A DNA stretch of 40,633 bases from a virus. A program made the translations under genes and the position numbers. The notes under the pieces are model-generated. The model did no database searches, was not told where the DNA came from, and saw nothing but the letters and a program-made list of their open reading frames with translations. The stretch lies in UHGV virus genome UHGV-0140992, one strand, 5' to 3'. Below, piece by piece: positions 2,751 to 38,573 of this stretch; the stretch's first letter is position 1, and each line of letters starts with the position of its first letter.

Positions 2751-2751
2751 C

Positions 2752-16836: not shown

Positions 16837-17421
16837 ATGAAAAGTATCCAGGACGTCCGCAGGCAAAATCTCAACGACTTGATCGACCGTGAATTCAATG
16901 GTGTTCAGACGCGGATGGCAGAAAAACTTGGAACTCAGGCAAATCTGGTAAACCGCTGGGCTCTTGGCAAGAAGGTTATCGGCGACCAGGTTGCACGAAA
17001 AATTGAAGCTGCCGCCAATAAACCCCGTAACTGGCTTGATATTGATCGTTCGCTTTCTCAGGAGGGTTTTCAGCCTGTCGGCCCGAGCGATATAGGTCAG
17101 CTGGCGGCTCACAACCTGGAACGCTGGATGAGCGAAAGCCGCGACCTTTCAACACAGGGAAAACTTCACCGCGCATCCGGCGTCGCCCAGGTGACAATCA
17201 GCCGCCTGTTAAACAATGAGGTCAGCGTTTCCATTTCCACCCTGGAGAATGTTGCATCCGCATTCGGGCGTCACGGATATGAACTACTGATTCACCCGCA
17301 CGACCCTGCGACTATCAACTATGACCGCTCACGCTACGCATTGTTACCCGAAACCGAGAAAGCAAAGATCGAAAGTTACATTGAATTTGTCATCAACCAG
17401 AACGAAAAAAGCAAACAATAA
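16837..17421 (+). CDS. CI-like immunity repressor, 194 aa, two HTH-like segments, no S24 peptidase domain
   Basis: divergent from the Cro-like gene across the operators; HTH-type N-terminus; no Ala-Gly / GDSM / Lys autocleavage motifs seen. Confidence 0.7.
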   Translation: MKSIQDVRRQNLNDLIDREFNGVQTRMAEKLGTQANLVNRWALGKKVIGDQVARKIEAAANKPRNWLDIDRSLSQEGFQPVGPSDIGQLAAHNLERWMSESRDLSTQGKLHRASGVAQVTISRLLNNEVSVSISTLENVASAFGRHGYELLIHPHDPATINYDRSRYALLPETEKAKIESYIEFVINQNEKSKQ

Positions 17422-21502: not shown

Positions 21503-22753
21503 TTATTCCCCCGCCATCCACTTCTCAAACTTCGACGGGGAGAACGGAATCAGATCCGTATGCTCCCCGTCAATCCATGAATCAATCATATCGGCCCACT
21601 GCTGCAACATGTAGGCGCGCTGTCTGGCGTATTCCGCTTTGTTATATACGGCGCGCACACCTTTCTGCTCATGTGCCAGAGCCTTTTCAATCCAGTCTGA
21701 AGGATAACCAGCCTCATGCAACAACGTACTGGCTGTACGGCGCATATCATGTACAGTGAAGTCCTGAATATGCTCACCATCTTCATTTATTATTTTCACC
21801 GTTCTGTCGATCAGAGAGTTCAGCGCGGCATTAGATAATGGCTTCCGGAAATTGTAACGACCAGGAACCAGATATTCACTTCCACCAGCGCACATCTGCA
21901 ACCCGACCAATATATCCTGTGCCTGTTTAGGCAGGTAAATAACGTGCGCCCGGCTTCCCTTCATGCGGTCTGGAGGAATTGTCCATGTCCATTTTTTAAA
22001 ATCTATTTCATCCCACGTTGCATTGGTGAATTCGCCCTTACGAACCATAGTGATAAGCACCAGTTTTAAAGCCATTTTCATAGTGCCCATAGCACCAATG
22101 GCATCCAGCGTGCGGAAGAACAGGCCAATTTCTTCTGGTGCCAGTGTTCGCTCTCGTGGTTTAAATATGGCGATAGACGAAGGTTTAATGTCAGCCGCAG
22201 GATTAAACAAACCATGACCACGGTCATTGGCGTGACGGTATACGCTACTGATGATCTCCCTGGCCTGCACTGCTGTTGCCCGGCCACCGCGTTCGACAAT
22301 CCGGTCACACAAATCACGAACCATCGATGTGGTAATTTCAGCCATCATTTTATTGCCAAGAACCGGAAGTATGTCACGGTCGATCACCGCCTGTTTCATT
22401 GCGCGGGTACTGTCAGCCAGGATGACGTGTTTCATATAACTGTCGGTATGTACCGCAAACGTCTCGGCACCACGAATCTTTTTGATACCGTCACGTTTAG
22501 CCGCAGCCGGTGACTGGCCTGCTTTAAGCAGCTTCTTTGCAGCAATCAGTTCTTCTCGCGCTTCTGCCAGGCTGATACCGTCACGCCCATACTGCCCGAT
22601 TACCAGTGTTTCGCGGCGACCGTTGATACGGTAGTCATAGCGAAACGAGACCGTGCCTGACGTAAGCACAGCTACATACAGCCCGTCACGATCGGAGACC
22701 TTGTACAGTTTGTCCTGCGGCTTGAGGTTTTTTAATTTTGTATCGGTAAGCAC
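21503..22753 (-). CDS. int: tyrosine integrase, P4-like, 416 aa
   Basis: N-terminal arm-binding-type domain and C-terminal catalytic region (HDMRRTASTLL ... Y); GTG start. Confidence 0.9.
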   Translation of the reverse strand: MLTDTKLKNLKPQDKLYKVSDRDGLYVAVLTSGTVSFRYDYRINGRRETLVIGQYGRDGISLAEAREELIAAKKLLKAGQSPAAAKRDGIKKIRGAETFAVHTDSYMKHVILADSTRAMKQAVIDRDILPVLGNKMMAEITTSMVRDLCDRIVERGGRATAVQAREIISSVYRHANDRGHGLFNPAADIKPSSIAIFKPRERTLAPEEIGLFFRTLDAIGAMGTMKMALKLVLITMVRKGEFTNATWDEIDFKKWTWTIPPDRMKGSRAHVIYLPKQAQDILVGLQMCAGGSEYLVPGRYNFRKPLSNAALNSLIDRTVKIINEDGEHIQDFTVHDMRRTASTLLHEAGYPSDWIEKALAHEQKGVRAVYNKAEYARQRAYMLQQWADMIDSWIDGEHTDLIPFSPSKFEKWMAGE

Positions 22754-22810: not shown

Positions 22811-23043
22811 TACCGTCACCTGTACCGACGAAAAATATGGTGTATAGTGAATAGAAATGAATACATAAAAACAAAAACCCTCTGTTTTTACAGAGGGTTA
22901 AATTAGTATCTGAATAGGAATGAGTTGCTATGAGTTAGCTGTTAATCATTCCCACTCAATTATTTACGATAACCATAACCAATTGAGTGATAACATTTTT
23001 CCAAATCTCAATTTTTCCCGTACCGTTTTATATACCGTCACCG
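22811..23043. other. candidate attP region with direct repeats TACCGTCACC (about 22811 and 23034) and GTACCG
   Basis: non-coding region next to int; repeated 10-mers about 220 bp apart; 9-bp inverted repeat cactcaatt ... aattgagtg around 22950-22990. Confidence 0.3.
22866..22899 (-). terminator. intrinsic terminator at the end of the late/lysis operon
   Basis: aaccctctg-ttttta-cagagggtt 9-bp stem followed by TTTTTGTTTTT on the minus strand. Confidence 0.6.
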
Positions 23044-23070: not shown

Positions 23071-23553
23071 CTATCTGGTCAAAGTGTCGTACTGTTTTTC
23101 GCAGACTCTTCCGGCTTCGGCTGCCCGGTCAGCATACTCTGCCAGTTGTCTGTTTCTCTCGAGAGATTTGCTGAGCACGTCGGCAAGCAAAACTCCGGTG
23201 TCTGCGGCTGACGACCCAGCGCCGACAATGGCGTTATACTGCCTGAGCTGCTCACGGATGGCAAAGAGTTGTTGCTGCAACCGGCCAGCGCTAGCGGCAG
23301 CATCAAGAGCATCATTGCGCGCCTGGTCGATCCTCTGCTGAGCTTCACGTTCATTGGTCACTTTCTCCTGTTCGTAGTACTGACGAACTTTGTCTTCTTC
23401 GGCTTTGCGGTCTTCTTCCGCCTGAGCATACCCGGCATCGTACTGGCGACTGCCGTGTATATTCCAGGCAACCACTCCTGATATGACCAGAACAGCAAGC
23501 ACTGCCACGATAAGAAACTGTTTCCAGTATGCTTTTACGAATGCCCAGATCAT
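23071..23553 (-). CDS. Rz-like i-spanin, 160 aa
   Basis: N-terminal TM helix then charged coiled-coil; follows the endolysin with ATGA overlap. Confidence 0.7.
23079..23315 (-). CDS. Rz1-like o-spanin lipoprotein embedded in Rz (+1 frame)
   Basis: lipobox LALAGC after a short signal sequence; Pro/Ser-rich; fully embedded in Rz. Confidence 0.5.
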   Translation of the reverse strand: MMLLMLPLALAGCSNNSLPSVSSSGSITPLSALGRQPQTPEFCLPTCSANLSRETDNWQSMLTGQPKPEESAKNSTTL

Positions 23554-24179
23554 ACCGCCAGCACCTTACTGGCAGTGATGTACCGCGCTCGCCGGTCGTC
23601 GATGCCGTTCCGGCCACCATTGATAATCAGAGTTACACGTGCAATATCGCCGGTATACTTCATGCATCCTTTGCTGGCGAAGAACCACGCCGCGCTACGA
23701 GCCGCATATTCGTCCTGCGCCAGCAGTTCAGGGCTCTCCAGCAGGTTAACCTTCAGACCGTTTCCGCAATCACGATAGTTATTCAAACCGGTAATCTGGA
23801 TAAGTCCGCGCCCTCGGTAATTCCAGCCATCACCAGGGGCATTGTTCCCCATGCGTTTGCTGTATACCAGATTTGCGATCGCGCGCTGGCGCTCAAGTGG
23901 CAATGGTGGTTCACCAGCACGGCGCCCCAGTGCATTAGCCTGCCCCTGAGTGAGACGCCCAGCCCGAACGAAGTTAGCCAGTCCGCTGACACTGTAGTTG
24001 AAATTCTCCTGCAACCTGGTGAAGCCCCCAGACTCATGCCCGACTTGAGCAATAAACATTGCCTGATCTTCTGCTTTGCTGATACCAAACTCTTTCATCG
24101 CAGAAGTTATATGCGAGAACCAGCGTGCGGCCAGTGCCTCGCTGATACCAGCAGCTCGCTGGAATTGTTTAATCTCCAT
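23550..24179 (-). CDS. endolysin, glycoside hydrolase family 19 type, 209 aa (start [11 protein letters not shown])
   Basis: [24 protein letters not shown] and [18 protein letters not shown] motifs as in GH19 phage endolysins (recall); track ORF extends upstream of the likely start. Confidence 0.8.
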
Positions 24180-24477
24180 GTTTAGACCTCGATACTTTAA
24201 AAATTTGAACGACGTTACCGCGCGTTTTAATAACCGCAGCCAGCATGACAGCGTTGATAATGACCTCAGATAAATCCACAGCCATTGGCGTACGTAACCA
24301 GATTGCATAGGCGACTCGAACAGGAATACTGGCCGCAGCAACAATCAGGAAATAAGCAAGCCATCCTCCCCACCTTCGATGTTGAGAGCCGTTACGCCGG
24401 AATGTGACAACGCGAATTGCTATGCCAGTGCAAATAACTGCATTGGTGATAAGCAAAAAAAACTCATGCGTTACCAT
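24169..24477 (-). CDS. holin-like membrane protein, 102 aa
   Basis: three predicted TM segments; overlaps the endolysin start. Confidence 0.5.
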
Positions 24478-24868
24478 CGTCTTTTCTCCCCGGAATTAAC
24501 TCGCGTGGATTATCGGAACGGTGATAGAGCCATATACCAATACGCACAGCGACAATTGCTGACACGAATGCGCCTGCAGAGAAAACAATCCCTTTTTCAA
24601 AAGAGTCCTGCGTGATGGTAGGGATCAGGCTGGCTATGCCGATAAGAATTGATGCTGCTGGTTTGTAAAAGAGAAGGCCGCAAAGAAAGCTGAGCATCGA
24701 CAGGAGCACCCGGCGACGGATGGGGTACTCTACTGCAGAGGTAACAAAAATTACCGCCCCAGCCAAAGCCCCTAAAGCAACCTCCGGAGGGGCACCTGCA
24801 ATAACCGCAGCAAGAGAACTAAAACTAAGCAACTGATTTAATTGCTCACTTGTTACTTGAGCAGACAT
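24464..24868 (-). CDS. holin-like membrane protein, 134 aa
   Basis: multiple hydrophobic helices; first gene of the lysis cassette. Confidence 0.45.
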   Translation of the reverse strand: MSAQVTSEQLNQLLSFSSLAAVIAGAPPEVALGALAGAVIFVTSAVEYPIRRRVLLSMLSFLCGLLFYKPAASILIGIASLIPTITQDSFEKGIVFSAGAFVSAIVAVRIGIWLYHRSDNPRELIPGRKDDGNA

Positions 24869-25149
24869 ACTTTCTCCTGTTTACTATCTATAAGCCAGTC
24901 AATTATTGATGACTAAACCCGCATAGTAAACCATATATGAATCATTATTGTTCCATATCATATATCTCAATAAAAGTACTAATGATTTTACAGAACGAGC
25001 CAGCAGAGTGGGGGCAGTTGTACAGGAACCATAGACTTAATTTTGTATTTAATAATGCTATGGTGTAATAAACCTGAACATGTATTTAAAATACGTACTG
25101 ATTCATGATAGAATTCAAAGATAACTTTTCACAAACTCCGTTTTTGATA

Positions 25150-25178
25150 CCCGCAAAATATTGCGGGCTTTTTTTTAA
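25150..25178 (+). terminator. plus-strand intrinsic terminator abutting the tailspike stop
   Basis: cccgcaa-aata-ttgcggg followed by CTTTTTTTTAA; U-run only on the plus strand. Confidence 0.45.
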
Positions 25179-28100
25179 CGTTCTTCCAGAGACTGAATCC
25201 GCTCTTTTATCTTATCCATTTCTCTGCGCTGCCATGCTGCCTCGATATAGAATAAGAGATCAGGTCTGACCCCCCATCTAGATCCTGCTGGCGTTATTTC
25301 AACGCGCTCAATGATGTCTTCCATTACCATCACTGGATTATCATCCTCATCAACAATGATGCTCCCGTCATTATCAGTCAGCGGCATTTCCCTTTGGCCA
25401 GTAATGACGTCATCATATACTGCGGGATAATCGTCATAGCAAAGAAAGGCATAGCGGCATGTTGTGCTTTCTTCTTCCATGAGTCCGTGAGAAATAAGAA
25501 CATCACGAAGTTGCTGCGCGATTACACCATGATGTATCCTCGCCCCTTCTTCCCCCTTTATAGCGACAGCGTTCAGCCATTTATAAGCGATATACCTGAC
25601 GTCACCCCAGGCATCCAGCAATGCTTCGTCAGGAGAGACCGGCTCTGTCTTTAATGTTCCGTCACTGGTAACCACAGGATTGGAGCCAAGATAAACTGTC
25701 GAGAACCTGTTTCCCGGACCACCAAGAGCATTTACATTATCAAGATAAGGTTTAACATCTCCGTTCTCAAAAAGATGTTCGAGTGCGTTATATACCGCGC
25801 GACGTGGAGTACTGCTTCCGGAACCATGCAACGTTATCATTGCACCATCTGCTGAAGACGTTATTTCACCGCCGCTAACGATTAATCTCTGAGCGGTAAC
25901 ATCATCAGACGGTACTTTCTTCGCAATAATGGCGTAATTACCCTCAAGTTTGACTTCCGCGCGAACTTGTCCTGATGTACCTGCATGGACAGTCAGTGAC
26001 TGGACGGCAACATCATCTGTGAAATCAACGGGTACAGGAACCGTCCTCACGCCTGACGTCGACATAAAAGTAGGAAGCGTTCTGTTAGGAGTGGCTCCGT
26101 AGACAAAATCCCTTGAAACAAATTCTTCCTGTTTAATTTTCACCCTGAAACAATACAAATCAGCCGGGTGACCATCGTGAACATAAGGATATTTTCTGTT
26201 GTTATCCCCTATGCTCCATGGGTTTAGAAAGTCTTCCCCACCGAAAATGTAGTACAGCCAGTTGTCTTTGATACAAACTGAACCAACACCAACTGCAGAG
26301 TTAACTATTCCGCCCTGATAAATCTGATCAGTAACATTAACCCACTCTACATTATCCAGACTCCACTCATTGACGTTAACTCTGGTCATAAATGTTCTTG
26401 GATAATTTCCTGCATAACGGTTATCAGGTTCTCCTCCTTCCCACTCACCAAATGCGCGCTCACTGCCAAAAATAATCAGCTCATCGCCAACTTTGGCAAA
26501 AGGAAGGTTTGAGTGATGAACATTATTTGGGAAGCGAAGAGAATTCCATGATGTACCTAAATCAGAGCTTCTGTGCAATGAACTACCGGGTTGAGTACTT
26601 AATGTCCCCCTGGTCGTCAGATACAGAATGCCATCATAATATTTTACACATGGCTCAGATGCATTCGCCTCATATTCTGCAGGTATGCGTCTGCGAACAA
26701 AGCTACCAGGAGAACCGAAAGCATCAGAGAAATAGAGTATCCCAAGCTCGCGTGGACCAATATCACCATTATGGTAGCCAACAGCAAAACTGTTATCGCT
26801 AATCGTCGCAAAACTGTGAATCTCAGTAACAGGAGTGCTTCCGTCAACAAAAGAAGGAATAGTTCCAAGACTGGTTTTTCTCCATGGTGACGAGTGAAAT
26901 GATGTACCAAAACTCCAGTATCTACCCTCGTTATTCTGATCCACATCCTGGGTATTTTGCGTCGTAACTGTAAAAGTATTTTTATCAATAACAGTAGTCA
27001 CCGTCATATTCCCGGTAACACCTGTAACACCAGAGTTTGAGAAGTTGACAAAATCACCAGCAAATAATCCGTGATCAGTAATGCGAATATAAGCGACTTG
27101 CTGATTTGCTGCTTTCGTTATACCACCATAAGCGCGAAGGCTGCGACTCATTGGGCGATCCCACAACTCTGCAACCTGCAGTTTATTTCCGCTCACGGTC
27201 CGCGTCTCAATTACAGCAAAAAGGCGATTTCTGACAACCCCCATACTCATGCAGTGATAGTTAACTGTGGGATAGTTTTCATGTAAATCTGTAAGCCATT
27301 CCGGCGTTGTCCAGGTCTTCCCGTCATCTCCTGAGCGAACCCATGCAACATGGAGGTTATTTACACCATGGCGGTCTCCAGCCATAAAAGGCGCATAGAT
27401 GACATTGTCATATACAAACGTTTTATCCTGCGTCCAGGCGTTGTACCACGGTGTATCTGTAATTTTAAATAACTCTCCCTGGATAAAATCTTCAGAAGCA
27501 TAAAAAAGAGGCTGGCCCGGTATTCTCTCAAATAAAAAACGAGCATTTTTAAATCGACTGACATCCGGAAGAGTTGATACTTTAAAAGTAAGCCCTAATC
27601 CGTCAATTTTATAACCTGGAGATGAGGCTTCAAGGCACGCGCTTATTGCAGTGGAATCGTCATTTATACCATCACCAACAGCTCCAAAATCTTTGGGGCT
27701 AATAGCATCACGCATTTTATCCTGGAACGTTCGGTACACAGCCCCAGAACCATACTGAATAAACCAACCAAAACCACCAACAACCCCGGCGATTGCAGCA
27801 TCGACATAATTACGCATTGAGCGATTATTTACAGCGTCCTGCTCAAATGATGGATCTGCAAGGTTAGAAATTTTGTTTTGCTTTGCATCGTAATATTTTG
27901 CAAGCAAAGATGGTTTCATCAATGCACGTCTGAACCACCCAAAACATTGCTGGATCAGCATCGTCAGGTAGTCAAAGGCATCTTCATGCACTTCGGGGAA
28001 AAATTTTCCCTGATTGCGAAGGTCTGTCTCCTGCACTACATCAAGCACACGATCTATCGTAATTCGCCATCCAGTAGCAAGCGGAGACGGAAGAACCACA

Positions 28101-28294
28101 GAACCGCCACTATAAGTGCCCGCCCCAGTTACCGTATAACCGGTATCCAGAACCAATTCTGTTACGTTTCCGTTCAGGTCAGACACCTGAACAACCAGGT
28201 CTGATTTTCTGAAAATTCGAAAAGTATACGGAAACGATGTCGTAACGCCGTTACCGGTGTATTCGTTGTGGTCAACTTCGGTTGAGACCGTCAT
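25175..28294 (-). CDS. tailspike endo-N-acetylneuraminidase (K1 endosialidase) with C-terminal intramolecular chaperone domain, 1039 aa
   Basis: long blocks match recalled phage K1F endosialidase (FERIPGQPLFYASEDFIQGELFKITDTPWYNAW ... EWLTDLHENYPTVNYHCMSMGV); chaperone-domain motifs (LGSNPVVTS, TEPV, DAWGDV) near the C-terminus. Confidence 0.85.
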   Translation of the reverse strand: MTVSTEVDHNEYTGNGVTTSFPYTFRIFRKSDLVVQVSDLNGNVTELVLDTGYTVTGAGTYSGGSVVLPSPLATGWRITIDRVLDVVQETDLRNQGKFFPEVHEDAFDYLTMLIQQCFGWFRRALMKPSLLAKYYDAKQNKISNLADPSFEQDAVNNRSMRNYVDAAIAGVVGGFGWFIQYGSGAVYRTFQDKMRDAISPKDFGAVGDGINDDSTAISACLEASSPGYKIDGLGLTFKVSTLPDVSRFKNARFLFERIPGQPLFYASEDFIQGELFKITDTPWYNAWTQDKTFVYDNVIYAPFMAGDRHGVNNLHVAWVRSGDDGKTWTTPEWLTDLHENYPTVNYHCMSMGVVRNRLFAVIETRTVSGNKLQVAELWDRPMSRSLRAYGGITKAANQQVAYIRITDHGLFAGDFVNFSNSGVTGVTGNMTVTTVIDKNTFTVTTQNTQDVDQNNEGRYWSFGTSFHSSPWRKTSLGTIPSFVDGSTPVTEIHSFATISDNSFAVGYHNGDIGPRELGILYFSDAFGSPGSFVRRRIPAEYEANASEPCVKYYDGILYLTTRGTLSTQPGSSLHRSSDLGTSWNSLRFPNNVHHSNLPFAKVGDELIIFGSERAFGEWEGGEPDNRYAGNYPRTFMTRVNVNEWSLDNVEWVNVTDQIYQGGIVNSAVGVGSVCIKDNWLYYIFGGEDFLNPWSIGDNNRKYPYVHDGHPADLYCFRVKIKQEEFVSRDFVYGATPNRTLPTFMSTSGVRTVPVPVDFTDDVAVQSLTVHAGTSGQVRAEVKLEGNYAIIAKKVPSDDVTAQRLIVSGGEITSSADGAMITLHGSGSSTPRRAVYNALEHLFENGDVKPYLDNVNALGGPGNRFSTVYLGSNPVVTSDGTLKTEPVSPDEALLDAWGDVRYIAYKWLNAVAIKGEEGARIHHGVIAQQLRDVLISHGLMEEESTTCRYAFLCYDDYPAVYDDVITGQREMPLTDNDGSIIVDEDDNPVMVMEDIIERVEITPAGSRWGVRPDLLFYIEAAWQRREMDKIKERIQSLEER

Positions 28295-28398
28295 GTTAAA
28301 TCTCCAGATAGTCGCAGCACCCGTTGCGCCGCATATCTGGTTATTCTATTACCTGGAAAACCACATATGGATAGAAAGGATGTAAATACGAATAGATA

Positions 28399-28413
28399 TT
28401 ACCTTTCAGGTAA
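28399..28413. promoter_or_regulatory. operator-type site TTACCTTTCAGGTAA
   Basis: identical 15-mer to 7224; in the divergent region between tailspike and the LexA-box gene. Confidence 0.45.
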
Positions 28414-28450
28414 TTTGCAAAACGTGCTGGATAGCAAACAAATTATTTGA

Positions 28451-28470: not shown

Positions 28471-28489
28471 ATTGCATGGAGAAGATAAG

Positions 28490-31780: not shown

Positions 31781-34255
31781 TTATTGCGGAGTGACATCCT
31801 GTGGTCGCCACCAGTATGTCTGGTTAAACTCTTTCTTCGAACGTTGCTCCATTTTACGCAAATAACCTGGTGAAAAATACTCCTGCATCTGGTTAAAGAT
31901 CATGTGATCGAGAGCCGCCTTCAAGTACCAGAGATTCGCACCTGGCATCAGACCTTTCCCCAGCTTAACCAGATCACCACCAGTCTGCTCACTCTTCCCT
32001 TCCACAGCATTTAACGGTATGCCCTGAGCAATCTTCACTACGTCATCAACCAGACCAGCTACCGGGCCAAGCATCGACGCCAGCGCGCCGCTTCCGTACC
32101 TAGTGTGATCTGACAATAAAAAGTCACCGTAAAGGCCAAGACCACCACCTTTCAGTAGAGCACCAAGCCAAAATTTAGCAGCATCTTCTCCTGTCATCTC
32201 GCGAGGATTACGACCAGACGCAAGGTCGTTAAGTTGCTGCGACAAAGCGCCAAGAATGGTCGTACTGGCAATAAACGTCGCAATATATGCCGCACGCCCA
32301 CCAGCAGACGGCATACCCATAGCGCGTGACCAGTGACGCATAACCACCGAGATAGGGAACGATTTAAACAGGAAAACACTTCTCGTTAATTCACCTTTCC
32401 ATGTTCCACGCTGAATACCAGAACCGGTTATCAGTTGCTCACGTGCTCCCGGTGTAATAACAGCCATATCAACTTCTTCAGTTACGGCACCGAGCAGTTT
32501 ACGCATTGCCTCAAATTTCACGCGTTCAGGCTCACCAAGATGTTTAACTGCTGAATCAGGGATACGCATAATGCTTTCCGGTGTCAGCATCGTATTATTA
32601 CCGTTCCCCCAGTCCTCCTGTTTCGCCAGCTTCCATACGCTCCAGTCTGTGTCAGTAATCCCTTTGCTTTTCAGGATACGAAAATCAGAGTCATCGAGGC
32701 TACGAAGGTCTGGTGTACGTGACACTACTTCTCCCAGGCTTCCCATCATGGTTACGCCATAGGCGCGCTTGTGCGCATCTGACCATGCTGTAAGCCCACT
32801 GGCACGCATTACCGCCGTTGCCGCCCAACGAGACACTGACGGCCCCATATTATCCATCGCCCAGCGGTTAACGCTGCCAAGTAGAGATTCCATCGCCAGA
32901 CCAGCGCGGCGCGCCCGCGCAAGTTCTGTACGGTTCGTTGGGTCCATAGCTTCAAGCTGGTTGCGGAATAACTGGTTCATTGGAAGGTTGGTAACCTTCG
33001 CAGACAGATACATGGTTCCAAGATCAGAGAACGATGACAGCAACGCGGATCCGAGTCTGCTGGCAACCAGCCAGTTGCGGATATTGTCAGACCATCGCGC
33101 GATGTGCGGATTCGCTACAGGCTGTGTCTTTCCGGAAATAAAGTTGTACAGATTCTCTGTGTTGTTCGCCAGCCGCTCGACTTTACCGGTTTTACTCGGG
33201 TTAGCTGTTGCCGTTTCTGCCTTCACCTGATCAAGAAGAGAGCGGAAAACATGATCGGGGTTTGGGCCATATGTTTCCACCAGTGCAATATCTTTACTGA
33301 TACCTTCCAGGTGACCGACCATGATTTCCCATAGAGAGCGATCGCCATAAAGTTGCTGATATTGCAGATAGGAATCTGCATCTTTGAAATGTATCTGTCG
33401 TGATGCATTACCACGGTTAGCACGTGCGCCGGAAATTCGCATTCCGGTATCAGTAAGCTTATTCAGCCCACCAGTAGCGATCGTGTTATAAGCCTCTCCA
33501 AGAAATGAAGACAACTCGGCATCGTTCATCAGTTGTCCATCGGCTCGGATATAATATTTGCGATCCAGCTTACCTATAACATCGCTAACCCACTTATCCT
33601 TTGATACTGCCCCAACCTTTTCCATAGAATGATGTTGAGGGATCCCCCAGTTTTCGAGATAGCCAATGTCCCCACCAGCATCATTAAACCGGCGGCGCAG
33701 CAGCTCTGTAACTTCTCTCCACGCCTTAGCACCGTTTCTTGCTTTAGCATTGCCAGTATTTTGCCCCCGCATTTCATATACCAGGTCACGTACGCCCGCT
33801 TCATCTTCAAACAGACCAAAAAAGCGAGGATCAACTGCTTCGAATGCCTCCTGCAATTGACTCAATGCATAATCACGGGTGGCTTTTGTTCTGGATTCAA
33901 CAGAGAGGAAATTAGATTTACCGTCTGCATTAAAAGCTATAGTACGGTTAAGAGCGCCAAGTTTCCCATCAGCCCCTTGATAGCTATTGATAAATTTATC
34001 CAATCTCTGACGCGCGGCTATAGTGAGAGCCACACGACGTTTCTTTAATGCCGCTTCTCGCTGTAATTCTTCAGATGCCAATTGTGCTGCTCGATATAGC
34101 CGCTCTGATTCGGAAAGTTGTCTCCACGACATCGGGTCATCACGAGCAATGGAGCGCATATTTCGATAAATGCGGTCTTCAATGTTCTGTATTTCTCGCG
34201 CCGTTAACGTGCGCTGCGCCGCCTGCTGGACCGCTTGTATACATTCCTGTCTCAT
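31781..34255 (-). CDS. internal virion / ejection protein, 824 aa
   Basis: large co-oriented protein in the gp14-gp16-equivalent block after the tail tube genes. Confidence 0.55.
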   Translation of the reverse strand: MRQECIQAVQQAAQRTLTAREIQNIEDRIYRNMRSIARDDPMSWRQLSESERLYRAAQLASEELQREAALKKRRVALTIAARQRLDKFINSYQGADGKLGALNRTIAFNADGKSNFLSVESRTKATRDYALSQLQEAFEAVDPRFFGLFEDEAGVRDLVYEMRGQNTGNAKARNGAKAWREVTELLRRRFNDAGGDIGYLENWGIPQHHSMEKVGAVSKDKWVSDVIGKLDRKYYIRADGQLMNDAELSSFLGEAYNTIATGGLNKLTDTGMRISGARANRGNASRQIHFKDADSYLQYQQLYGDRSLWEIMVGHLEGISKDIALVETYGPNPDHVFRSLLDQVKAETATANPSKTGKVERLANNTENLYNFISGKTQPVANPHIARWSDNIRNWLVASRLGSALLSSFSDLGTMYLSAKVTNLPMNQLFRNQLEAMDPTNRTELARARRAGLAMESLLGSVNRWAMDNMGPSVSRWAATAVMRASGLTAWSDAHKRAYGVTMMGSLGEVVSRTPDLRSLDDSDFRILKSKGITDTDWSVWKLAKQEDWGNGNNTMLTPESIMRIPDSAVKHLGEPERVKFEAMRKLLGAVTEEVDMAVITPGAREQLITGSGIQRGTWKGELTRSVFLFKSFPISVVMRHWSRAMGMPSAGGRAAYIATFIASTTILGALSQQLNDLASGRNPREMTGEDAAKFWLGALLKGGGLGLYGDFLLSDHTRYGSGALASMLGPVAGLVDDVVKIAQGIPLNAVEGKSEQTGGDLVKLGKGLMPGANLWYLKAALDHMIFNQMQEYFSPGYLRKMEQRSKKEFNQTYWWRPQDVTPQ

Positions 34256-34260
34256 TTAAT

Positions 34261-36063
34261 TTAACCTCTCAAGAAACACGCCACAGCGACATCAAACAGG
34301 CTGGAATCCTGTATTGCCTGCTCACTTTCCCTGTTCGCTTCATCCAGTACTTCACGCGCGCTGCGCGATTGTGGATTACCATCATCATCCAGCACGGTGA
34401 TTATCATGTCCGGATATTCAAGCAGCGAGTCTTCAGCTATACGCAGATCAATATCTCCTGCCGGATCTGCCATCATTTTTTGTTCTGTCTGTTGCAATAT
34501 CTTACCGGGATCAAAAGGAGCTACTTCGTCTGGCGTCCTGACCTCTGCTGTTTTATAGAATGAAACAGCCTGAGCATTAAGTTCACTTTCTGCCTGCTGT
34601 CTCCGAGCCAGTTCTGCTCGAGCTTCAAAAAACTGACCGCCAGGCTCATGCGGTGCCAACGCGTTACGGGAAAATTCCAGGCGTTCTTGTGCCTGCCGGA
34701 TTCGTTGGTCAATATCCCGAAGTCTGGCCTGTTTATCTGATCGAGCACGAGACAAAGCTTTACCGCTACCGGCTGGATCTTCTGCAAGAATTTGTGCGCG
34801 CTGTTCAGTGAGATTTTCAATAATTCGTTGGCTATTAGCGATTTCAGACTGGTAAACCTGTCTATCGCCACGCGGCAAAAGCTGCGCGGCCTGTTCTTCA
34901 AGCAACCGATTTTCTATAGCGCGCGCCGTTACTCCATCATCTACAGATGACAGAGCCTCATTAACTGCCTGAGACAGCAGACTCTTGCGTCCAGGAATTT
35001 CACTGAAAGATGCAGACTCAACAATGCTGGCAACGTCTACAGGTCTCCCCTGGCTAACATCAGACATGGCTTTTCGCAGAGCCTGAATGTGCGAATTACG
35101 CGAAAGCACGTTGATCGGCACGCCGGGAGCAATATCAATTTCAGCATGATGAGCGGCATTCGCCGCCAGTGCAGCATCGATATCAACTGGTGAAAAATTT
35201 GGTGCGCTTGTAGACTCGCCGCGAGAGTTAATAAATCTGCCGACACCACCAAACGCCACCCCAAGAACAGCATCAATAGCAATTGCCTGTCGATCCAACA
35301 CATCATACTGGTTAGCCATTTCGCTATAGCCACCATCACGAAGCGTTTTTGCAGTAAGCCCACGCTGTGCCATACCGAACGCAATATTTGTACCTGCGGC
35401 ATAGGCAATATCTGGCGTTGCACGTACTGCTGTTGCTGCGGCGCGTCGCACTGAACTTTCACCCGTCCGCGCAAGCTGAGCCGCCACACCTTCCGCCAGC
35501 GCACCACCAGCACGTAACCCGAGGCTCATAGGGATCAGTGTTCCGGCACCAGCAGTAATACCCTGCACTAATCCCGCTTCCTGCGCCGTCCTGAAATCAA
35601 CACCCTGTGCTGTAAGCCGTTCAAACTCAGAAAAACCCTGTAGAGAAGTTACCGCCGCAGCACCTCCGACCGGACCACCGAGCGTTGTACCGACAACAGC
35701 CTGCCCGCCCATATCGAACAACCCATAAAGGACCTGCCCGGCGGTTCCGGTTGTCGCGGCATCAGGCGTCAGCCGCTTAACCTGCTGCTCTGCTAGTTTT
35801 CTCTGCTCAGCAATGTATGAAACTGAAGTGTCATTGATCGAGGTGTTTTCGTTAACAAACTGAGCAATCGGGGATACGATTTTATCCATCCCTGCCCATA
35901 GCAACTGATCTGGCTTTGCCACCAGCCCGGAGTACAAACCAGACAATGCCGCTCCTACAGCATTGTCGAAAAAACCAACATCGCTGTTAAAGCCAGCTGG
36001 ATTTGATGCTGCTTCGTCAAGCTGCTGATTCTGGTTTACTGGATTAAGGCCAAAGTAACTCAT
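34261..36063 (-). CDS. internal virion / ejection protein, 600 aa, Gly/Ala-rich
   Basis: glycine-zipper-like hydrophobic stretches; position in the ejection-protein block. Confidence 0.5.
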   Translation of the reverse strand: MSYFGLNPVNQNQQLDEAASNPAGFNSDVGFFDNAVGAALSGLYSGLVAKPDQLLWAGMDKIVSPIAQFVNENTSINDTSVSYIAEQRKLAEQQVKRLTPDAATTGTAGQVLYGLFDMGGQAVVGTTLGGPVGGAAAVTSLQGFSEFERLTAQGVDFRTAQEAGLVQGITAGAGTLIPMSLGLRAGGALAEGVAAQLARTGESSVRRAAATAVRATPDIAYAAGTNIAFGMAQRGLTAKTLRDGGYSEMANQYDVLDRQAIAIDAVLGVAFGGVGRFINSRGESTSAPNFSPVDIDAALAANAAHHAEIDIAPGVPINVLSRNSHIQALRKAMSDVSQGRPVDVASIVESASFSEIPGRKSLLSQAVNEALSSVDDGVTARAIENRLLEEQAAQLLPRGDRQVYQSEIANSQRIIENLTEQRAQILAEDPAGSGKALSRARSDKQARLRDIDQRIRQAQERLEFSRNALAPHEPGGQFFEARAELARRQQAESELNAQAVSFYKTAEVRTPDEVAPFDPGKILQQTEQKMMADPAGDIDLRIAEDSLLEYPDMIITVLDDDGNPQSRSAREVLDEANRESEQAIQDSSLFDVAVACFLRG

Positions 36064-38573
36064 TGCGGAATATCTCCGGAGAATCTCTGACGCTTCTGTG
36101 TCAGATTAAGAACAACGGGAGAACCATCATCTTTCAGCAGATAACCAGTACCAAGTTTCACCAGGTACTGACTATCGCCGTAACTTTGCAAACCATACTG
36201 ACCAGGCGGTGTTTTTATCCCGGAGCCGACAACTTGTTCATTCCAAGCCTGATTAACCTGCTTATCGAATTGCTCTGCAGACATTCCCCACGGCAAAAGG
36301 ACATTCCCCATTCCGTTATAGTCATGCACGCCACCTGTAGCTACGTTAACAGCCTGTTTCCAGACATCATTGTCAATTTCGCCTGATACCACGCCTTTTT
36401 TCGCCATCACACCAGCGTAATAATCCTTTGCGATCTCGTATGCCATTGATGCGCCCTGAGCGTCACCAGCAAATGCATCCTTCACCATGTCAGAAAACTC
36501 AAGGCGAAGATCAGCATCTTTAGGCATCGGAATACCTTTCGCATCATCAGTACCTTTACGAGCCGCCGCGCCAGCAAGAATTGTCTGCGCAGCGGTTTCA
36601 GGAGACACGGAAACATCCGGATTAAACCAGTTTTTTTCTGCCAAAATACCACCAGGCTTATCCATCAGTATCCCGGCAACGGCAGCAGATGGAGCGTTGG
36701 CACTGATCTGCTGTAGTGCTGACATATACACCTGCCCACCACCAGTGCTCTGCCTGATGGTATCGAGATATGCTGCCTGTTGGGAAACTGGAGCATCACG
36801 AAAGAAAACACCGATCTGATTGGCCTCGTCTTTGGAAAAGAACGTCAGTGGAGTGCCATATGACTTAGCAAGGTCACTGACCTGAGCGGCACGCAAGGCA
36901 ACGCTCTGTCCAAAGTTATCCTTATTGCTCATGTCGATAGGCTTTGCCTGTCGGGAGGCAAGAGAGAACTGCACAGGATCCGACTGCCGCTGCTTTATCA
37001 CCTGATTTGCAGCCGAAACAACGTTGTCATAAAGAGTTGCGCGTGCCGCATACCCCTCCCCTGTATCACCAGTATCCGGGCGTAATTGCTCAACATATGC
37101 TGTAATGCTGCTTGTCGGCATGTTGCGGAAAGAGCCTATATACTGTCCGGCGATCTGCGTATTCTTAAACTCGGTATATCGCAGGTTTCCTTCTCTGACT
37201 CCATAAGCTGCAATAAAATCATCCTCACCAGGTGGGTTAGGAAATTCAATGCCACGCATATACGCAGCCGTCGCATCGCGAACCCGGCTGTCGAGCATCG
37301 TTTTATATTCAGCCTGCTGTTGTCTGGCTAGTGCATCAGTCTGTCGCAACACGCTGGCCTGATCTGATTCACTTAAAGCATCGAACCAGGCTACACCGGT
37401 ATAACGTTTATTTTTTGTCGGTAGCTGAGAAAGCCCCAGCGCAGCACTAACACCTGCAGTTAACTGCTGATCACTGTATGGCTGGCTACCGTTTTCATGA
37501 TGGATAATGGCTGCACAAAGCGCCTTCAGGGTATCAGGATTTGATGCATCGAGAGGCTCATCAGCAGAAACGCCAAGTTGTTCGCACACTGCTTTGATAT
37601 ACGACATAGTGTCATTTTTATCAGTAGGCGGTGCCCAGCGATTAATTATCTCGCTGACGGTATCAATACCCTGCCGCTGATACGACATCAGGTTCCGCCC
37701 TAATGCACGAATACCGTGTTCAGGGGTTTCGAATTTGGCAAAGCGACCATCATCACCAGTCTGCCCAACCCACGGATTAGTTTTGCTGTATTCAAGATTG
37801 CCGGGGTTATTGTTGCGTATACCGCGGGTACGATCGGAAGAGCCACTATCTGCTACAGCACGGCGAGAACCAGCAGCAGTATCGCTTAACTCGCCGTTTT
37901 GCTGTCTTACCTGAAGATAGTTTGCTCCAATAGCATTTTGAGCAGTTGCTTTTGCTGTTGCTTCTTTAAACTCGATTTTCTTGGCCTGGATTTGCTCGTC
38001 ACTCCAGCCATGTGCAATGCCGTAATCCTCAATTTGCTGGAAAGTTTGCTTATTAGCCAATACGTATGCGGCGTTGTCGCCATACAATGCTGCGGCATTT
38101 TTACCATTGTTCAGCAGCGTAGCCTGAAACTGGCCTTCTTCGTAGGCATTTATTTGCCCTATCTCGTGCCGCCCGGCCTGCGTAGTGAACTGAATGCGCT
38201 GCTGCTGCGCCTGCTGCATGAAAGCATTACGAGCCTGTTCATCCGGCAGCGACATAGCCAGTTGTTCGACCTGAGCATCAAACTGCTGCGTATACTCCTG
38301 ACCTTTTCCAATAGCATTTTTCCCTTTCAGGTTAAGCAAACCTGTTTCAGGGTTATTCAGCAGATCGCTGCTTATCTGGCTTAAGCTAAGAGAAGCATCC
38401 TGAGCCATAGCAACATTCGCACGCTGTTTTGCCTGCGCAATAATACCTGCATATTGCTCTGCAACATCGCCAAGTACATCACCGACATTTGGTGTCTGAA
38501 ACGATGAGAATCCCTGCGTCGAAATCCCTCTGCTCTGAACCTGACGGCCCGATGTTGTTGGTACAACTGGCAT
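36060..38573 (-). CDS. internal virion protein, 837 aa, possible cell-wall-degrading domain
   Basis: position; conserved-looking GIRNNNPGNLEYS ... RFAKFETPEHGIRALGRNL block that I associate with virion-borne muralytic domains (recall, uncertain). Confidence 0.5.
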   Translation of the reverse strand: MPVVPTTSGRQVQSRGISTQGFSSFQTPNVGDVLGDVAEQYAGIIAQAKQRANVAMAQDASLSLSQISSDLLNNPETGLLNLKGKNAIGKGQEYTQQFDAQVEQLAMSLPDEQARNAFMQQAQQQRIQFTTQAGRHEIGQINAYEEGQFQATLLNNGKNAAALYGDNAAYVLANKQTFQQIEDYGIAHGWSDEQIQAKKIEFKEATAKATAQNAIGANYLQVRQQNGELSDTAAGSRRAVADSGSSDRTRGIRNNNPGNLEYSKTNPWVGQTGDDGRFAKFETPEHGIRALGRNLMSYQRQGIDTVSEIINRWAPPTDKNDTMSYIKAVCEQLGVSADEPLDASNPDTLKALCAAIIHHENGSQPYSDQQLTAGVSAALGLSQLPTKNKRYTGVAWFDALSESDQASVLRQTDALARQQQAEYKTMLDSRVRDATAAYMRGIEFPNPPGEDDFIAAYGVREGNLRYTEFKNTQIAGQYIGSFRNMPTSSITAYVEQLRPDTGDTGEGYAARATLYDNVVSAANQVIKQRQSDPVQFSLASRQAKPIDMSNKDNFGQSVALRAAQVSDLAKSYGTPLTFFSKDEANQIGVFFRDAPVSQQAAYLDTIRQSTGGGQVYMSALQQISANAPSAAVAGILMDKPGGILAEKNWFNPDVSVSPETAAQTILAGAAARKGTDDAKGIPMPKDADLRLEFSDMVKDAFAGDAQGASMAYEIAKDYYAGVMAKKGVVSGEIDNDVWKQAVNVATGGVHDYNGMGNVLLPWGMSAEQFDKQVNQAWNEQVVGSGIKTPPGQYGLQSYGDSQYLVKLGTGYLLKDDGSPVVLNLTQKRQRFSGDIPQ

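What the first reader, a model, noticed from the sequence alone, without database searches (positions are those of the whole stretch)
25175..28294. K1-capsule endosialidase tailspike on a temperate phage with a T7-like tail
Catalytic and C-terminal chaperone regions match recalled endosialidase sequence of the lytic K1 phages closely. The N-terminal 130 residues differ and look like a tail-adapter domain. A polysialic-acid depolymerase in a genome with integrase and repressor implies lysogeny of K1-encapsulated E. coli and capsule-dependent adsorption.
Basis: partly seen in the sequence, partly recalled or inferred. Interest (0 to 1): 0.6.

Follow-up and report, generated by a model that had tools for sequence, protein, structure and literature searches.

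The report
K1 endosialidase tailspike, temperate epsilon15-like phage

Summary
The ORF at 25175-28294 (minus strand, 1039 aa) is real and is an endosialidase tailspike. Residues 205-876 match the K1F endoNF crystal structure (E=0). All four endosialidase Pfam domains and the C-terminal chaperone domain are present. Fourteen of 14 functionally critical endoNF residues are conserved, including the Ser-Lys self-cleavage dyad.

The gene is a mosaic. Residues 1-195 are the virion anchor shared by phiV10-type (Uetakevirus) spikes. Nucleotides 699-3091 are 99.4% identical to the endosialidase of prophage CUS-3.

The window is a circularly permuted complete genome of a temperate epsilon15/phiV10-like podovirus, with integrase, repressor, antirepressor and an attP matching the guaA 3' end. 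"T7-like tail" holds only remotely. The phage has a nozzle, a gp14-family core protein, a gp8-type portal and a gp17-N-like anchor fold, but it is not an autographivirus.

The same gene occurs in 72 of 5426 complete E. coli genomes. These are strongly enriched among K1 (neuS-positive) strains and include IHE3034, APEC O1 and CE10.

Phage vB_EcoP_ZX5 (2022) has a spike differing at 3 residues, infects and lysogenises a K1 host, and its three-domain architecture was described. Verdict: interpretation supported, already known, low interest. Capsule dependence and enzyme activity remain inferred for this phage.

The parts
25175..28294 (-). Endosialidase tailspike gene, 1039 codons plus stop
   Evidence: ORF. 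endoNF/phi92 homology at E=0. Pfam endosialidase domains. phrog_1171 'tail spike protein' over the full length. 99.7% aa identity to ZX5 ORF7 and 99.3% to the IHE3034 prophage gene.
27710..28294 (-). Virion anchor module, aa 1-195: beta-sandwich (aa ~9-82) followed by coiled-coil neck. Shared by phiV10-type spikes that carry many different enzymes.
   Evidence: 98% nt identity to phiv142-3 through gene nt 596, including 400 nt upstream. Homologous to Carin-1 spike Dpo31 D1/D2 at 1.5e-32 (PMC13317679 places D1 at the virion base). AF2 pLDDT ~90 for aa 10-80. Foldseek best hit is 8ck1_B, followed by T7 gp17 N-terminal chains. Relatives all diverge after '...FQDKMRD'.
27599..27709 (-). Junction segment, aa 196-232, containing the 'DFGAxGDGxxDD' cap motif. 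It is the start of the endosialidase N-terminal domain, diverged from CUS-3.
   Evidence: No megablast/blastn match to either parent. 43% aa identity to CUS-3 and 38% to K1F. Pfam End_N_terminal starts at aa 205.
25204..27596 (-). 2.39-kb block (gene nt 699-3091, aa 233-1030) nearly identical to the CUS-3 siaK1 endosialidase
   Evidence: 99.4% nt identity with no gaps. 10 aa differences, only one of them in the beta-propeller/barrel (A388V).
26132..27481 (-). Catalytic six-bladed beta-propeller (aa 272-721) with inserted polySia-binding beta-barrel (aa 383-465, window 26900-27148). Active-site residues H309, R515, E547, R562, R613.
   Evidence: Pfam PF12217 at 775 bits and PF12195 at 154 bits. 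Residue mapping to endoNF H350/R549/E581/R596/R647. The roles of these residues come from PMC12632334.
25667..26131 (-). Stalk / triple-beta-helix domain (aa 722-876), including R863 (= endoNF R897)
   Evidence: Pfam PF12219 at 258 bits. R863 conserved.
25175..25666 (-). C-terminal intramolecular chaperone domain (aa 877-1039, plus stop). Predicted self-cleavage at S877 (codon 25664-25666) with K882.
   Evidence: Pfam Peptidase_S74 at 41.4 bits vs 22 cut-off. 3gw6 match at 2.4e-93. S877/K882 correspond to endoNF S911/K916 (dyad described in PMC8326128).
25150..25167 (.). GC-rich hairpin immediately after the stop codon, inside a 306-nt AT-rich spacer before the holin genes. No capsule-modifying gene is present here.
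   Evidence: Terminator-like scan and sequence. Contrast with oac after the phiV10 fibre and neuO after CUS-3 siaK1.
39589..40633 (-). Tail nozzle gene, 3' part. The gene wraps round the window ends.
   Evidence: A continuous 823-codon ORF appears when the ends are joined. Carin-1 'Tail Nozzle' 8ck1_A at E=2.5e-216.
1..1427 (-). Tail nozzle gene, 5' part (ATG at 1427)
1427..2035 (-). Gene in the position of the tail adaptor (homologue of phiV10 p14 'tail protein')
   Evidence: Position and phiV10 annotation. No Pfam hit. The adaptor role is inferred from gene order only.
38586..39125 (-). Internal virion / ejection protein, T7 gp14 family
   Evidence: Pfam PF24072 at 32.8 bits vs 27 cut-off. 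PGAP names it 'virion core protein, T7 gp14 family' in IHE3034.
31781..38573 (-). Three large virion/ejection protein genes (837, 600 and 824 aa). The 837-aa protein has a transglycosylase-like region.
   Evidence: PHROG 992/1044/7182, 1145 and 684.
21503..22753 (-). Tyrosine integrase
   Evidence: Pfam Arm-DNA-bind_3, Phage_int_M and Phage_integrase. phrog_1.
22944..22965 (.). attP core region (approximate), containing the guaA 3' end ATTGAGTGGGAATGA
   Evidence: Homology with the IHE3034 prophage stops at window 22944, at the prophage/chromosome junction. [quoted passage not shown] Only one junction was examined, so the extent of the core is approximate.
16837..17421 (+). Repressor (HTH_3)
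   Evidence: Pfam and PHROG hits. It is the homologue of the ZX5 ORF21 repressor, which was tested by overexpression (PMC9782041).
29881..30606 (+). BRO-N antirepressor
   Evidence: Pfam Bro-N at 71 bits. PHROG 130 'anti-repressor Ant'.
23071..24868 (-). Lysis cassette: two holin-family genes, a GH19 endolysin and a DUF2514 Rz-like gene
   Evidence: Pfam hits. Annotations of ZX5, IHE3034 and phiV10.

Best explanation
The gene encodes the receptor-destroying tailspike of a temperate epsilon15/phiV10-like podovirus (genus Uetakevirus) that infects and lysogenises K1-encapsulated E. coli.

Proposed mechanism, with the basis for each step:
- Three chains trimerise with the help of the C-terminal chaperone domain. 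That domain then cuts itself off after folding, at Ser877, using the Ser877/Lys882 dyad (inferred from conserved residues and the endoNF precedent).
- The N-terminal beta-sandwich and coiled coil (aa 1-195) dock the trimer to the adaptor/nozzle tail hub (inferred from homology to the Carin-1 spike, whose position in the virion is known, and from fold similarity to T7 gp17 N-terminus).
- The beta-propeller binds alpha-2,8-polysialic acid and cleaves it internally, so the virion tunnels through the K1 capsule to the outer membrane (inferred from one residue of difference in the propeller to the experimentally active CUS-3 enzyme, and from intact active-site residues).
- After DNA entry the phage can integrate at the 3' end of guaA through its tyrosine integrase and be kept silent by its repressor (shown for ZX5; integrated copies were seen here in K1 genomes).

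The gene is a mosaic. A Uetakevirus anchor is joined to an endosialidase whose central 2.39 kb is 99.4% identical to the gene of the unrelated P22-like prophage CUS-3. The two endosialidase flanks are homologous to CUS-3 but diverged. This pattern fits recent gene conversion between two endosialidase genes, and the two prophage types do co-reside in at least nine K1 genomes.
For: - ORF and coordinates.
- endoNF, phi92 and chaperone-domain homology.
- Five Pfam domains above threshold.
- 14/14 critical residues conserved (H309, R515, E547, R562, R613, Q289, D290, H493, S494, K551, N665, R863, S877, K882). Their roles come from PMC12632334 and PMC8326128.
- 99.4% nt identity to CUS-3 siaK1 over nt 699-3091. 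One aa difference in aa 272-721. The CUS-3 record carries direct-assay evidence for endo-alpha-sialidase activity (annotation, PMID 16689790; listed in PMC5380687).
- Anchor: 98% nt identity to phiv142-3, Carin-1 Dpo31 at 1.5e-32, fold search.
- Genome backbone is a Uetakevirus.
- Nozzle, gp14 family and gp8-type portal.
- Lysogeny genes and attP.
- Prophage copies in 72 complete genomes, including IHE3034, APEC O1, CE10 (O7:K1) and O1:K1:H7 APEC strains.
- Enrichment among neuS-positive genomes, p=1.8e-11. The full K1 neu/kps locus is present in IHE3034.
- ZX5, with 3 aa differences in the spike, plaques on and lysogenises an O87:H52:K1 host: PMC9782041.
- Co-residence with CUS-3-type genes.
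Against: - No enzymatic or adsorption assay exists for this protein or for the ZX5 spike. The ZX5 paper reports no acapsular control.
- K1 status was verified directly only for IHE3034. For the rest it rests on strain names and a statistical overlap of listed rows, not a full enumeration of the 72 genomes.
- The docking partner of the anchor is inferred from homology. The coiled-coil part of the model had low confidence (pLDDT about 50, monomer prediction).
- The direction of transfer, and whether it was conversion or fusion, cannot be settled from the sequences examined. Ten of 14 differing codons in the shared block are non-synonymous, which is unusual but involves very few events.
Confidence: 0.93

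Rival explanations
1. The gene is a relic in a defective prophage. The protein is no longer assembled on virions or is catalytically dead, and the element persists only as chromosomal cargo.
For: Many prophages in ExPEC genomes are cryptic. One allele is interrupted by an IS3 element (H107). No activity assay exists.
Against: The window is a complete, circularly closed genome with all structural, lysis and lysogeny genes intact. The ORF is uninterrupted and all critical residues are conserved. Alleles in 72 genomes are at least 99.1% identical and full length. ZX5, with 3 aa differences, forms plaques and is spontaneously induced to 1e7 PFU/ml.
Confidence: 0.04
2. The spike binds or cleaves a different glycan from plain K1 polysialic acid, for example K92 alternating alpha-2,8/2,9 polymer or only a particular O-acetylation state. 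Host range would then not be simply 'K1'.
For: 14 genomes carry a neuS at 80-90% identity, which I interpret as K92-type. Ten residues differ from CUS-3 in the shared block, several of them in the stalk and chaperone regions. O-acetylation by CUS-3 neuO varies in the same strains (PMC8653822).
Against: The propeller and barrel differ from the characterised CUS-3 enzyme at one residue (A388V). Active-site and second-shell residues are identical to endoNF. Named hosts are K1.
Confidence: 0.03
3. The phage is a T7-like (Autographiviridae) lytic phage that has picked up lysogeny genes. Read literally, this is what the title's 'T7-like tail' would suggest.
For: There is fold similarity of the anchor to T7 gp17 N-terminus. 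A T7_gp14 family hit, a gp8-type portal Pfam hit and nozzle-type tail gene order are also present.
Against: Whole-genome nucleotide similarity is to Uetakevirus members ZX5, phiV10, phiv142-3 and HEMP4 at 96-98%. The capsid is the epsilon15 GP7 type. No ORF is long enough or annotated as a single-subunit RNA polymerase; the largest ORFs are the spike and virion proteins. Pfam Phage_T7_tail is below threshold.
Confidence: 0.01

Closest known systems
Tailspike ORF7 (QTH80017.1) of Escherichia phage vB_EcoP_ZX5 (MW722083; Uetakevirus), Pathogens 2022, PMC9782041
   Same: Same length (1039 aa), 99.7% aa and 99.8% nt identity (3 substitutions: S368R, A388V, I811T). The upstream and downstream sequence is the same. 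It sits on the same phage backbone, with the same integrase, repressor and guaA attachment, and its host is K1. The paper already describes the three-part architecture: T7-like N-terminus, endosialidase, and chaperone.
   Different: The window's genome is about 1 kb longer. It differs from ZX5 in the cargo region between the spike and the virion protein genes (about 28.3-31.5 kb) and in parts of the early region; ZX5 covers 80% of window 1-25000.
Endosialidase tailspike SiaK1 of prophage CUS-3 (CP000711; P22-like Lederbergvirus; Stummeyer et al. 2006)
   Same: aa 233-1030 are 98.7% identical (99.4% nt). It has the same catalytic propeller (one difference), stalk and chaperone domain, is also temperate, and lives in the same K1 host lineages. 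The two are often in the same genome.
   Different: CUS-3 has a P22-type head-binding N-terminal domain instead of the phiV10-type anchor. The first 37 residues of the endosialidase part and the last 9 residues are diverged (43% and 22% identity). CUS-3 has the neuO O-acetyltransferase next to the spike, and this phage has none. The phage backbone is unrelated.
EndoNF, gp17 of lytic phage K1F (PDB 1v0e, 3gvl, 3gw6; GH58)
   Same: Same domain order from the endosialidase N-terminal domain to the chaperone domain. 61.8% identity over aa 196-1039. All 14 critical residues checked are conserved. The N-terminal anchor has a related beta-sandwich fold.
   Different: K1F is a virulent T7-like phage. 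Its 245-residue N-terminus is a bona fide Phage_T7_tail domain with no detectable sequence similarity to this anchor in pairwise alignment.
Tail fibres/spikes of other Uetakevirus prophages (phiV10 p25, phiv142-3 Orf6, EC.W1-9 'eliminase') and the Carin-1 spike Dpo31 (PDB 28lx/8ck1)
   Same: They share the N-terminal anchor: 98% nt identity to phiv142-3, 68.5% aa identity to phiV10, and E=1.5e-32 to Dpo31. The position in the genome is the same. Dpo31 also has a self-cleaved C-terminal domain.
   Different: Their enzymatic modules are unrelated: GH28/pectate-lyase-like, SGNH/GDSL esterase, or beta-helix. They target O antigens or other polysaccharides.

Membership tests
Phage endosialidases (endo-N-acetylneuraminidase, GH58) | Domain architecture: N-terminal extension, six-bladed beta-propeller with inserted beta-barrel, and tailspike stalk | tested here: met
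   Pfam PF12218 (109.6 bits), PF12217 (775 bits), PF12195 (154.4 bits) and PF12219 (258.1 bits), all far above the cut-offs.
Phage endosialidases (endo-N-acetylneuraminidase, GH58) | Significant sequence homology to structurally solved endosialidases | tested here: met
   endoNF 1v0e/3gvl at E=0 and 1046 bits; phi92 4hiz at 6.6e-271.
Phage endosialidases (endo-N-acetylneuraminidase, GH58) | Active-site residues (endoNF H350, R549, E581, R596, R647) and conserved second-shell residues | tested here: met
   H309, R515, E547, R562 and R613, plus Q289, D290, H493, S494, K551 and N665, are all identical. The residue list comes from PMC12632334.
Phage endosialidases (endo-N-acetylneuraminidase, GH58) | [quoted passage not shown] | not testable with these tools
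   Inferred only. The nearly identical CUS-3 enzyme carries direct-assay evidence in its GenBank record.
C-terminal intramolecular chaperone / Peptidase S74 domain | Domain homology, the Ser-Lys catalytic dyad at the cleavage site, and the stalk arginine | tested here: met
   PF13884 at 41.4 bits vs 22. 3gw6 at 2.4e-93. S877, K882 and R863 correspond to endoNF S911, K916 and R897 (PMC8326128).
C-terminal intramolecular chaperone / Peptidase S74 domain | Autoproteolytic release after trimer folding | not testable with these tools
   Needs SDS-PAGE of wild-type and S877A protein.
Uetakevirus (epsilon15/phiV10-like temperate podoviruses) | Genome-wide nucleotide similarity and synteny with classified members | tested here: met
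   ZX5 at 98.2% over 80% of window 1-25000. phiV10 at 98% and 95.8% over 40-62%. phiv142-3, HEMP4 and PAS61 at 97-98%. Gene order matches phiV10. The formal ICTV intergenomic distance was not computed.
Uetakevirus (epsilon15/phiV10-like temperate podoviruses) | epsilon15-type major capsid protein and lysogeny module | tested here: met
   Pfam GP7 at 497 bits. Integrase, repressor and antirepressor.
T7-like phages (Autographiviridae) | Phage-encoded single-subunit RNA polymerase | tested here: not met
   No candidate ORF. The largest ORFs are the spike (1039 aa) and virion proteins (837, 824, 823, 600 aa), which are assigned to structural PHROGs or the nozzle. No dedicated RNAP profile search was run.
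T7-like phages (Autographiviridae) | Tail fibre N-terminal domain of the Phage_T7_tail family (PF03906) | tested here: not met
   15.9 bits against a cut-off of 25.2, matching only 27 residues. None of 120 relatives carries a precomputed PF03906 hit. At fold level the beta-sandwich resembles gp17 N-terminus, so it works like one without being a sequence-family member.
T7-like phages (Autographiviridae) | Nozzle-type tail with gp14-like ejection protein and gp8-type portal | tested here: met
   Nozzle 8ck1_A at 2.5e-216. PF24072 T7_gp14 at 32.8 bits vs 27. PF12236 at 622 bits.
CUS-3-type endosialidase tailspike (P22-like) | P22-type head-binding N-terminal domain, with neuO adjacent | tested here: not met
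   The N-termini do not align. DNA identity starts only at gene nt 699. There is no gene between the spike and the holin genes.

The most novel reading that the evidence does not exclude
The 2.39-kb block of 99.4% identity may be the footprint of recent gene conversion between two co-resident but unrelated prophages, P22-like CUS-3 and this epsilon15-like phage, inside K1 ExPEC lineages. The block is flanked on both sides by homologous but diverged endosialidase sequence. On this reading K1 lysogens act as mixing vessels that homogenise receptor-binding modules across phage genera, rather than the spike arising from a one-off fusion of an anchor to a catalytic domain. The lack of any capsule-modifying gene in this phage, unlike neuO in CUS-3 and oac in phiV10, may mean it relies on CUS-3 or on immunity alone to limit self-adsorption.
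Probability: 0.45. Interest if true: 0.3.

Novelty: already known. Interest (0 to 1): 0.12.

Why it matters
It adds little. Endosialidase spikes and their transfer onto different anchors (T7-type in K1F, P22-type in CUS-3, adaptor-borne in K1E/K1-5) are textbook examples of modular tailspike evolution (PMC5380687). The epsilon15/phiV10-type anchor version was published with phage ZX5 in 2022, and NCBI's pipeline already names the gene in dozens of K1 genomes.

Its practical value is as a marker. About 1 in 4 to 5 K1 genomes in the complete-genome set carry this second endosialidase prophage, often together with CUS-3. That is relevant to K1 phage therapy, to endosialidase-based reagents, and to studies of capsule turnover in neonatal-meningitis and avian-pathogenic lineages.

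The sharp recombination boundaries give a clean natural example for studying how receptor-binding modules move between temperate phages.

Tried and rejected
- Pfam on the nozzle and the putative adaptor gave no hits. The nozzle was identified only through the PDB sequence search.
- PADLOC on eight cargo and early proteins found nothing, so no defence-system claim is made.
- The AF2 model of the anchor was confident only for the beta-sandwich. The coiled-coil part (monomer prediction) had pLDDT of about 50, and the large rmsd values in Foldseek full-length alignments reflect that. Only the 82-87-column sandwich superpositions are used as evidence.
- I could not enumerate neuS in all 72 spike-bearing genomes because tables are capped at 60 rows. 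I used the overlap of the listed rows as a hypergeometric test instead.
- Two papers could not be retrieved: the epsilon15 tailspike preprint and Schwarzer 2009. Residue roles were taken from PMC12632334 and PMC8326128 instead.
- A simple two-parent fusion model (phiv142-3-type anchor plus the CUS-3 catalytic part) was considered. I set it aside because the 102 nt between the two homology blocks and the last 29 nt match neither parent at DNA level, yet are endosialidase-like at protein level.
- The reading 'lytic T7-like phage' was rejected (see rivals).
- The homologous-protein output for the anchor returned mostly partial proteins, so it was not used to count enzyme types.

Full report
**Observation.**
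The window has one uninterrupted ORF at exactly 25175..28294 on the minus strand (ATG start, 1039 aa).
- A sequence search of the Protein Data Bank aligns residues 205-876 to endosialidase endoNF of phage K1F (1v0e/3gvl; E=0, 1046 bits) and to the phi92 endosialidase (4hiz).
- Residues 757-1038 align to the endoNF C-terminal chaperone construct (3gw6, 2.4e-93).
- Residues 1-209 align to a different protein, the tailspike Dpo31 of the marine podovirus Carin-1.
- Pfam gives End_N_terminal (205-271), End_beta_propel (272-721) with End_beta_barrel inserted (383-465), End_tail_spike (722-876) and Peptidase_S74 (877-937). All are far above the curated thresholds.

The one correction is that the non-endosialidase N-terminus is about 195 residues, not 130.

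**Catalytic competence.**
I fetched K1F gp17 and aligned it to the window protein.
- The active-site residues H350, R549, E581, R596 and R647 correspond to H309, R515, E547, R562 and R613.
- Second-shell residues Q330, D331, H527, S528, K585 and N699 are also identical.
- So are the self-cleavage dyad S911/K916 (S877/K882) and the stalk arginine R897 (R863).

The functional importance of these residues is taken from a deep mutational scan of the K1F spike (PMC12632334) and from structural work on the chaperone domain (PMC8326128). Overall identity to K1F is 61.8% over residues 196-1039.

**Mosaic anatomy.**
Megablast against phage genomes shows three kinds of match:
- full-length matches at 99.8% to phage vB_EcoP_ZX5 and two unannotated induced-phage contigs;
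- nt 699-3091 at 99.4-99.5% to the siaK1 endosialidase of prophage CUS-3 and its relatives;
- nt 1-582 at 98% to the tail fibres of phiv142-3 and EC.W1-9, which carry other enzymes.

A local blastn with 400-nt flanks refines this. The upstream region plus gene nt 1-596 is phiv142-3-like. Gene nt 699-3091 is CUS-3-like without a single gap. The 102 nt in between and the last 29 nt match neither.

At protein level, all relatives of the anchor share sequence up to '...FQDKMRD' (aa 195) and then diverge into different enzymatic modules. Residues 196-232, around the 'DFGAxGDGxxDD' cap motif, are already part of the endosialidase N-terminal domain but are only 43% identical to CUS-3. The last 9 residues are 22% identical. 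The block 233-1030 is 98.7% identical, and the catalytic propeller differs at one residue, A388V.

Homologous-but-diverged flanks around a near-identical core are what gene conversion between two pre-existing endosialidase genes would leave. A simple anchor-plus-catalytic-domain fusion explains the flanks less well. This is an inference.

**What the phage is.**
Both halves of the window match classified Uetakevirus genomes (ZX5, HEMP4, phiv142-3, PAS61, phiV10, TL-2011b) at 96-98% nucleotide identity. The gene order follows phiV10.

The window's two ends split one gene. Joining them gives a continuous 823-codon ORF, starting at 1427 and ending at 39589 on the minus strand. This protein is the tail nozzle (Carin-1 nozzle 8ck1_A, E=2.5e-216). 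The window is therefore a circular permutation of a complete genome of about 40.6 kb.

The lysogeny module consists of:
- a tyrosine integrase (21503-22753);
- an HTH repressor (16837-17421);
- a BRO-N antirepressor (29881-30606);
- RecE/RecT-type genes and an MT-A70 methylase.

Homology with the integrated copy in E. coli IHE3034 stops at window 22944, in the integrase-lysis intergenic region. The sequence there...ATTGAGTGGGAATGA, is the 3' end of guaA. This agrees with the experimentally mapped integration of ZX5 into the guaA 3' end (PMC9782041) and with the IHE3034 prophage lying next to yfgI.

**The 'T7-like tail' claim.**
By sequence, the anchor is not a member of the T7 fibre N-terminal family. 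Pfam Phage_T7_tail scores 15.9 bits against a cut-off of 25.2. None of 120 relatives carries that domain in precomputed annotations.

I predicted the anchor's structure from a 28-sequence alignment. The beta-sandwich (aa ~9-82) is confident (pLDDT about 90). The helices are not, as expected for a monomer model of a trimeric coiled coil. Foldseek against the PDB puts the Carin-1 fibre first (8ck1_B, 6e-11). It is followed by fibre N-termini of T7-like phages (PhiM1, Kp7/Kp9) and T7 itself (7ey9, 7boz, 8dsp). The sandwich-only superpositions give 1.9-2.9 A over 82-87 columns.

Three other features point the same way: a T7_gp14-family core protein (32.8 vs 27 bits), a gp8-type portal (622 bits) and the nozzle. 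The tail is thus of the nozzle type that T7 exemplifies, and the anchor very probably docks as gp17 does.

The phage is nonetheless not T7-like taxonomically. It has an epsilon15-type capsid (Pfam GP7), no candidate RNA polymerase ORF, and a temperate lifestyle.

**Hosts.**
The gene occurs full length, at 99.1% identity or better, in 72 of 5426 complete E. coli genomes. It is always chromosomal, and PGAP names it 'endosialidase catalytic beta-propeller domain-containing protein'. Hosts include IHE3034, APEC O1, CE10 (O7:K1), APEC O18, O1:K1:H7 APEC isolates and cerebrospinal-fluid isolates.

I located the K1 capsule locus in IHE3034 (neuS, neuE, neuC, neuA, neuB, neuD flanked by kps genes) and used neuS as a marker. 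It is present at 99% identity or better in 311 genomes. Ten of the 60 listed neuS-positive genomes are among the 43 spike-bearing genomes I could list. The expectation is 0.48 under independence and 8.3 if all spike carriers are K1 (hypergeometric p=1.8e-11). This is a sampled test, not a full enumeration.

A CUS-3-type spike (P22-type N-terminus) occurs in 154 genomes. At least nine genomes carry both types (IHE3034, CE10, APEC O18, EC69, N1, N21, N54, ST95-32, CUVET21-H2). These genomes provide the setting in which the two genes could recombine.

**Prior knowledge.**
Phage vB_EcoP_ZX5 (Pathogens 2022, PMC9782041) has a spike differing from this one at three residues.
- The paper classifies the phage as a temperate Uetakevirus.
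- It identifies the host as O87:H52:K1.
- It shows integration at guaA, stable lysogeny and spontaneous induction.
- It describes ORF7 as a T7-like N-terminal domain, plus an endosialidase, plus the endosialidase chaperone.
- It does not test capsule dependence or enzyme activity.

The CUS-3 endosialidase was characterised in 2006 (record note; PMC5380687). The transfer of the endosialidase module onto different anchors is a standard example of tailspike modularity. The finding is therefore correct but already known.

**Mechanism and confidence.**
The most likely mechanism (confidence 0.93) runs as follows:
1. The chaperone domain assists trimerisation, then cleaves itself off at Ser877.
2. 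The trimer attaches through the N-terminal sandwich and coiled coil to the adaptor/nozzle hub.
3. The propeller binds and endo-cleaves alpha-2,8-polysialic acid, allowing passage through the K1 capsule.
4. The phage then either grows lytically or integrates at guaA.

Shown here: the sequence, domain and residue conservation, the mosaic boundaries, the integrated copies and the association with K1 genomes. Shown by others: infection and lysogeny of a K1 host by ZX5, and enzymatic activity of the CUS-3 and K1F enzymes. Still inferred: activity and capsule dependence of this particular protein, and the docking geometry.

**Rivals.**
Three alternatives are each contradicted by the evidence summarised in the rivals section and together receive under 0.1:
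- a defective relic;
- an altered glycan specificity;
- a true T7-like phage.

**Side observations.**
- The region between the spike and the virion-protein genes (about 28.3-31.5 kb) is a variable cargo slot. This window has a 242-aa membrane-anchored, cysteine-rich protein (phrog_6762, with weak Zn-ribbon similarities) and a 193-aa protein of unknown function. ZX5 has other small genes there, and IHE3034 has a YafO toxin pair. PADLOC finds nothing.
- No capsule- or O-antigen-modifying gene follows the spike, unlike phiV10 (oac) and CUS-3 (neuO).
- A Kluyvera cryocrescens protein combines the same anchor with an endosialidase N-terminal domain.
- One E. coli allele is interrupted by IS3.
- The chaperone-domain DNA alone occurs at 99.2% identity on another tail fibre gene.

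Noticed in passing
window 39589-40633 joined to 1-1427 (minus strand): The window ends cut through an 823-codon tail-nozzle gene (Carin-1 nozzle homologue, E=2.5e-216). The window is therefore a circular permutation of a complete ~40.6-kb phage genome, not a fragment with natural ends.
   Followed up: yes
window 28300-31500: Variable cargo slot between the spike and the virion-protein genes. It holds a 242-aa protein (28770-29498, minus) with an N-terminal membrane helix and repeated Cys-pair Zn-ribbon motifs (phrog_6762; weak endonuclease VII/Lar/Stc1-like hits), and a 193-aa unknown protein (30753-31334, plus; phrog_5954). ZX5 and the IHE3034 prophage carry different genes here (a YafO toxin pair in IHE3034). 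No PADLOC defence hits.
   Followed up: partly
window 28472-28747 (+) and 29881-30606 (+): The 91-aa ORF just upstream of the spike and the C-terminal 85 residues of the BRO-N antirepressor hit the same PHROG families (450 and 15539). This suggests a duplicated small module of unknown role.
   Followed up: no
window 24869-25174: Only a 306-nt AT-rich spacer with a GC hairpin (25150-25167) lies between the spike and the holin genes. There is no receptor-modifying gene, whereas phiV10 has the O-acetyltransferase oac and CUS-3 has neuO at the equivalent place.
   Followed up: partly
window 22944-22965: The attP core contains the last codons of guaA (ATTGAGTGGGAATGA). Homology with the integrated IHE3034 copy ends exactly here, matching the published guaA integration of ZX5.
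   Followed up: yes
E. coli genomes: IHE3034 NC_017628.1 2,717,133 (CUS-3-type) and 2,884,245 (this type); also CE10, APEC O18, EC69, N1, N21, N54, ST95-32, CUVET21-H2: At least nine complete K1 genomes carry two endosialidase prophages of unrelated backbones, P22-like and epsilon15-like, whose catalytic regions are about 99.4% identical.
   Followed up: partly
protein P0010 (Kluyvera cryocrescens, 277 aa): A Kluyvera protein has the same anchor (80% identity) followed by an endosialidase N-terminal extension (PF12218). It is either truncated or the start of an endosialidase-like spike outside E. coli.
   Followed up: no
NZ_AP045810.1 (strain 23CRST038) 3,431,589-3,436,021; NZ_CP082067.1 (MS20673) 2,481,279-2,481,763: One allele of the spike gene is interrupted by an IS3-family element. 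In another genome only the chaperone-domain DNA (gene nt 2607-3091, 99.2%) is present, on a different tail fibre gene, which shows that this module also moves independently.
   Followed up: no
window 36060-38573 (minus): The 837-aa internal virion protein has a region matching 'tail injection transglycosylase'/endolysin PHROGs (aa ~157-546). This is analogous to the lytic transglycosylase of T7 gp16.
   Followed up: no
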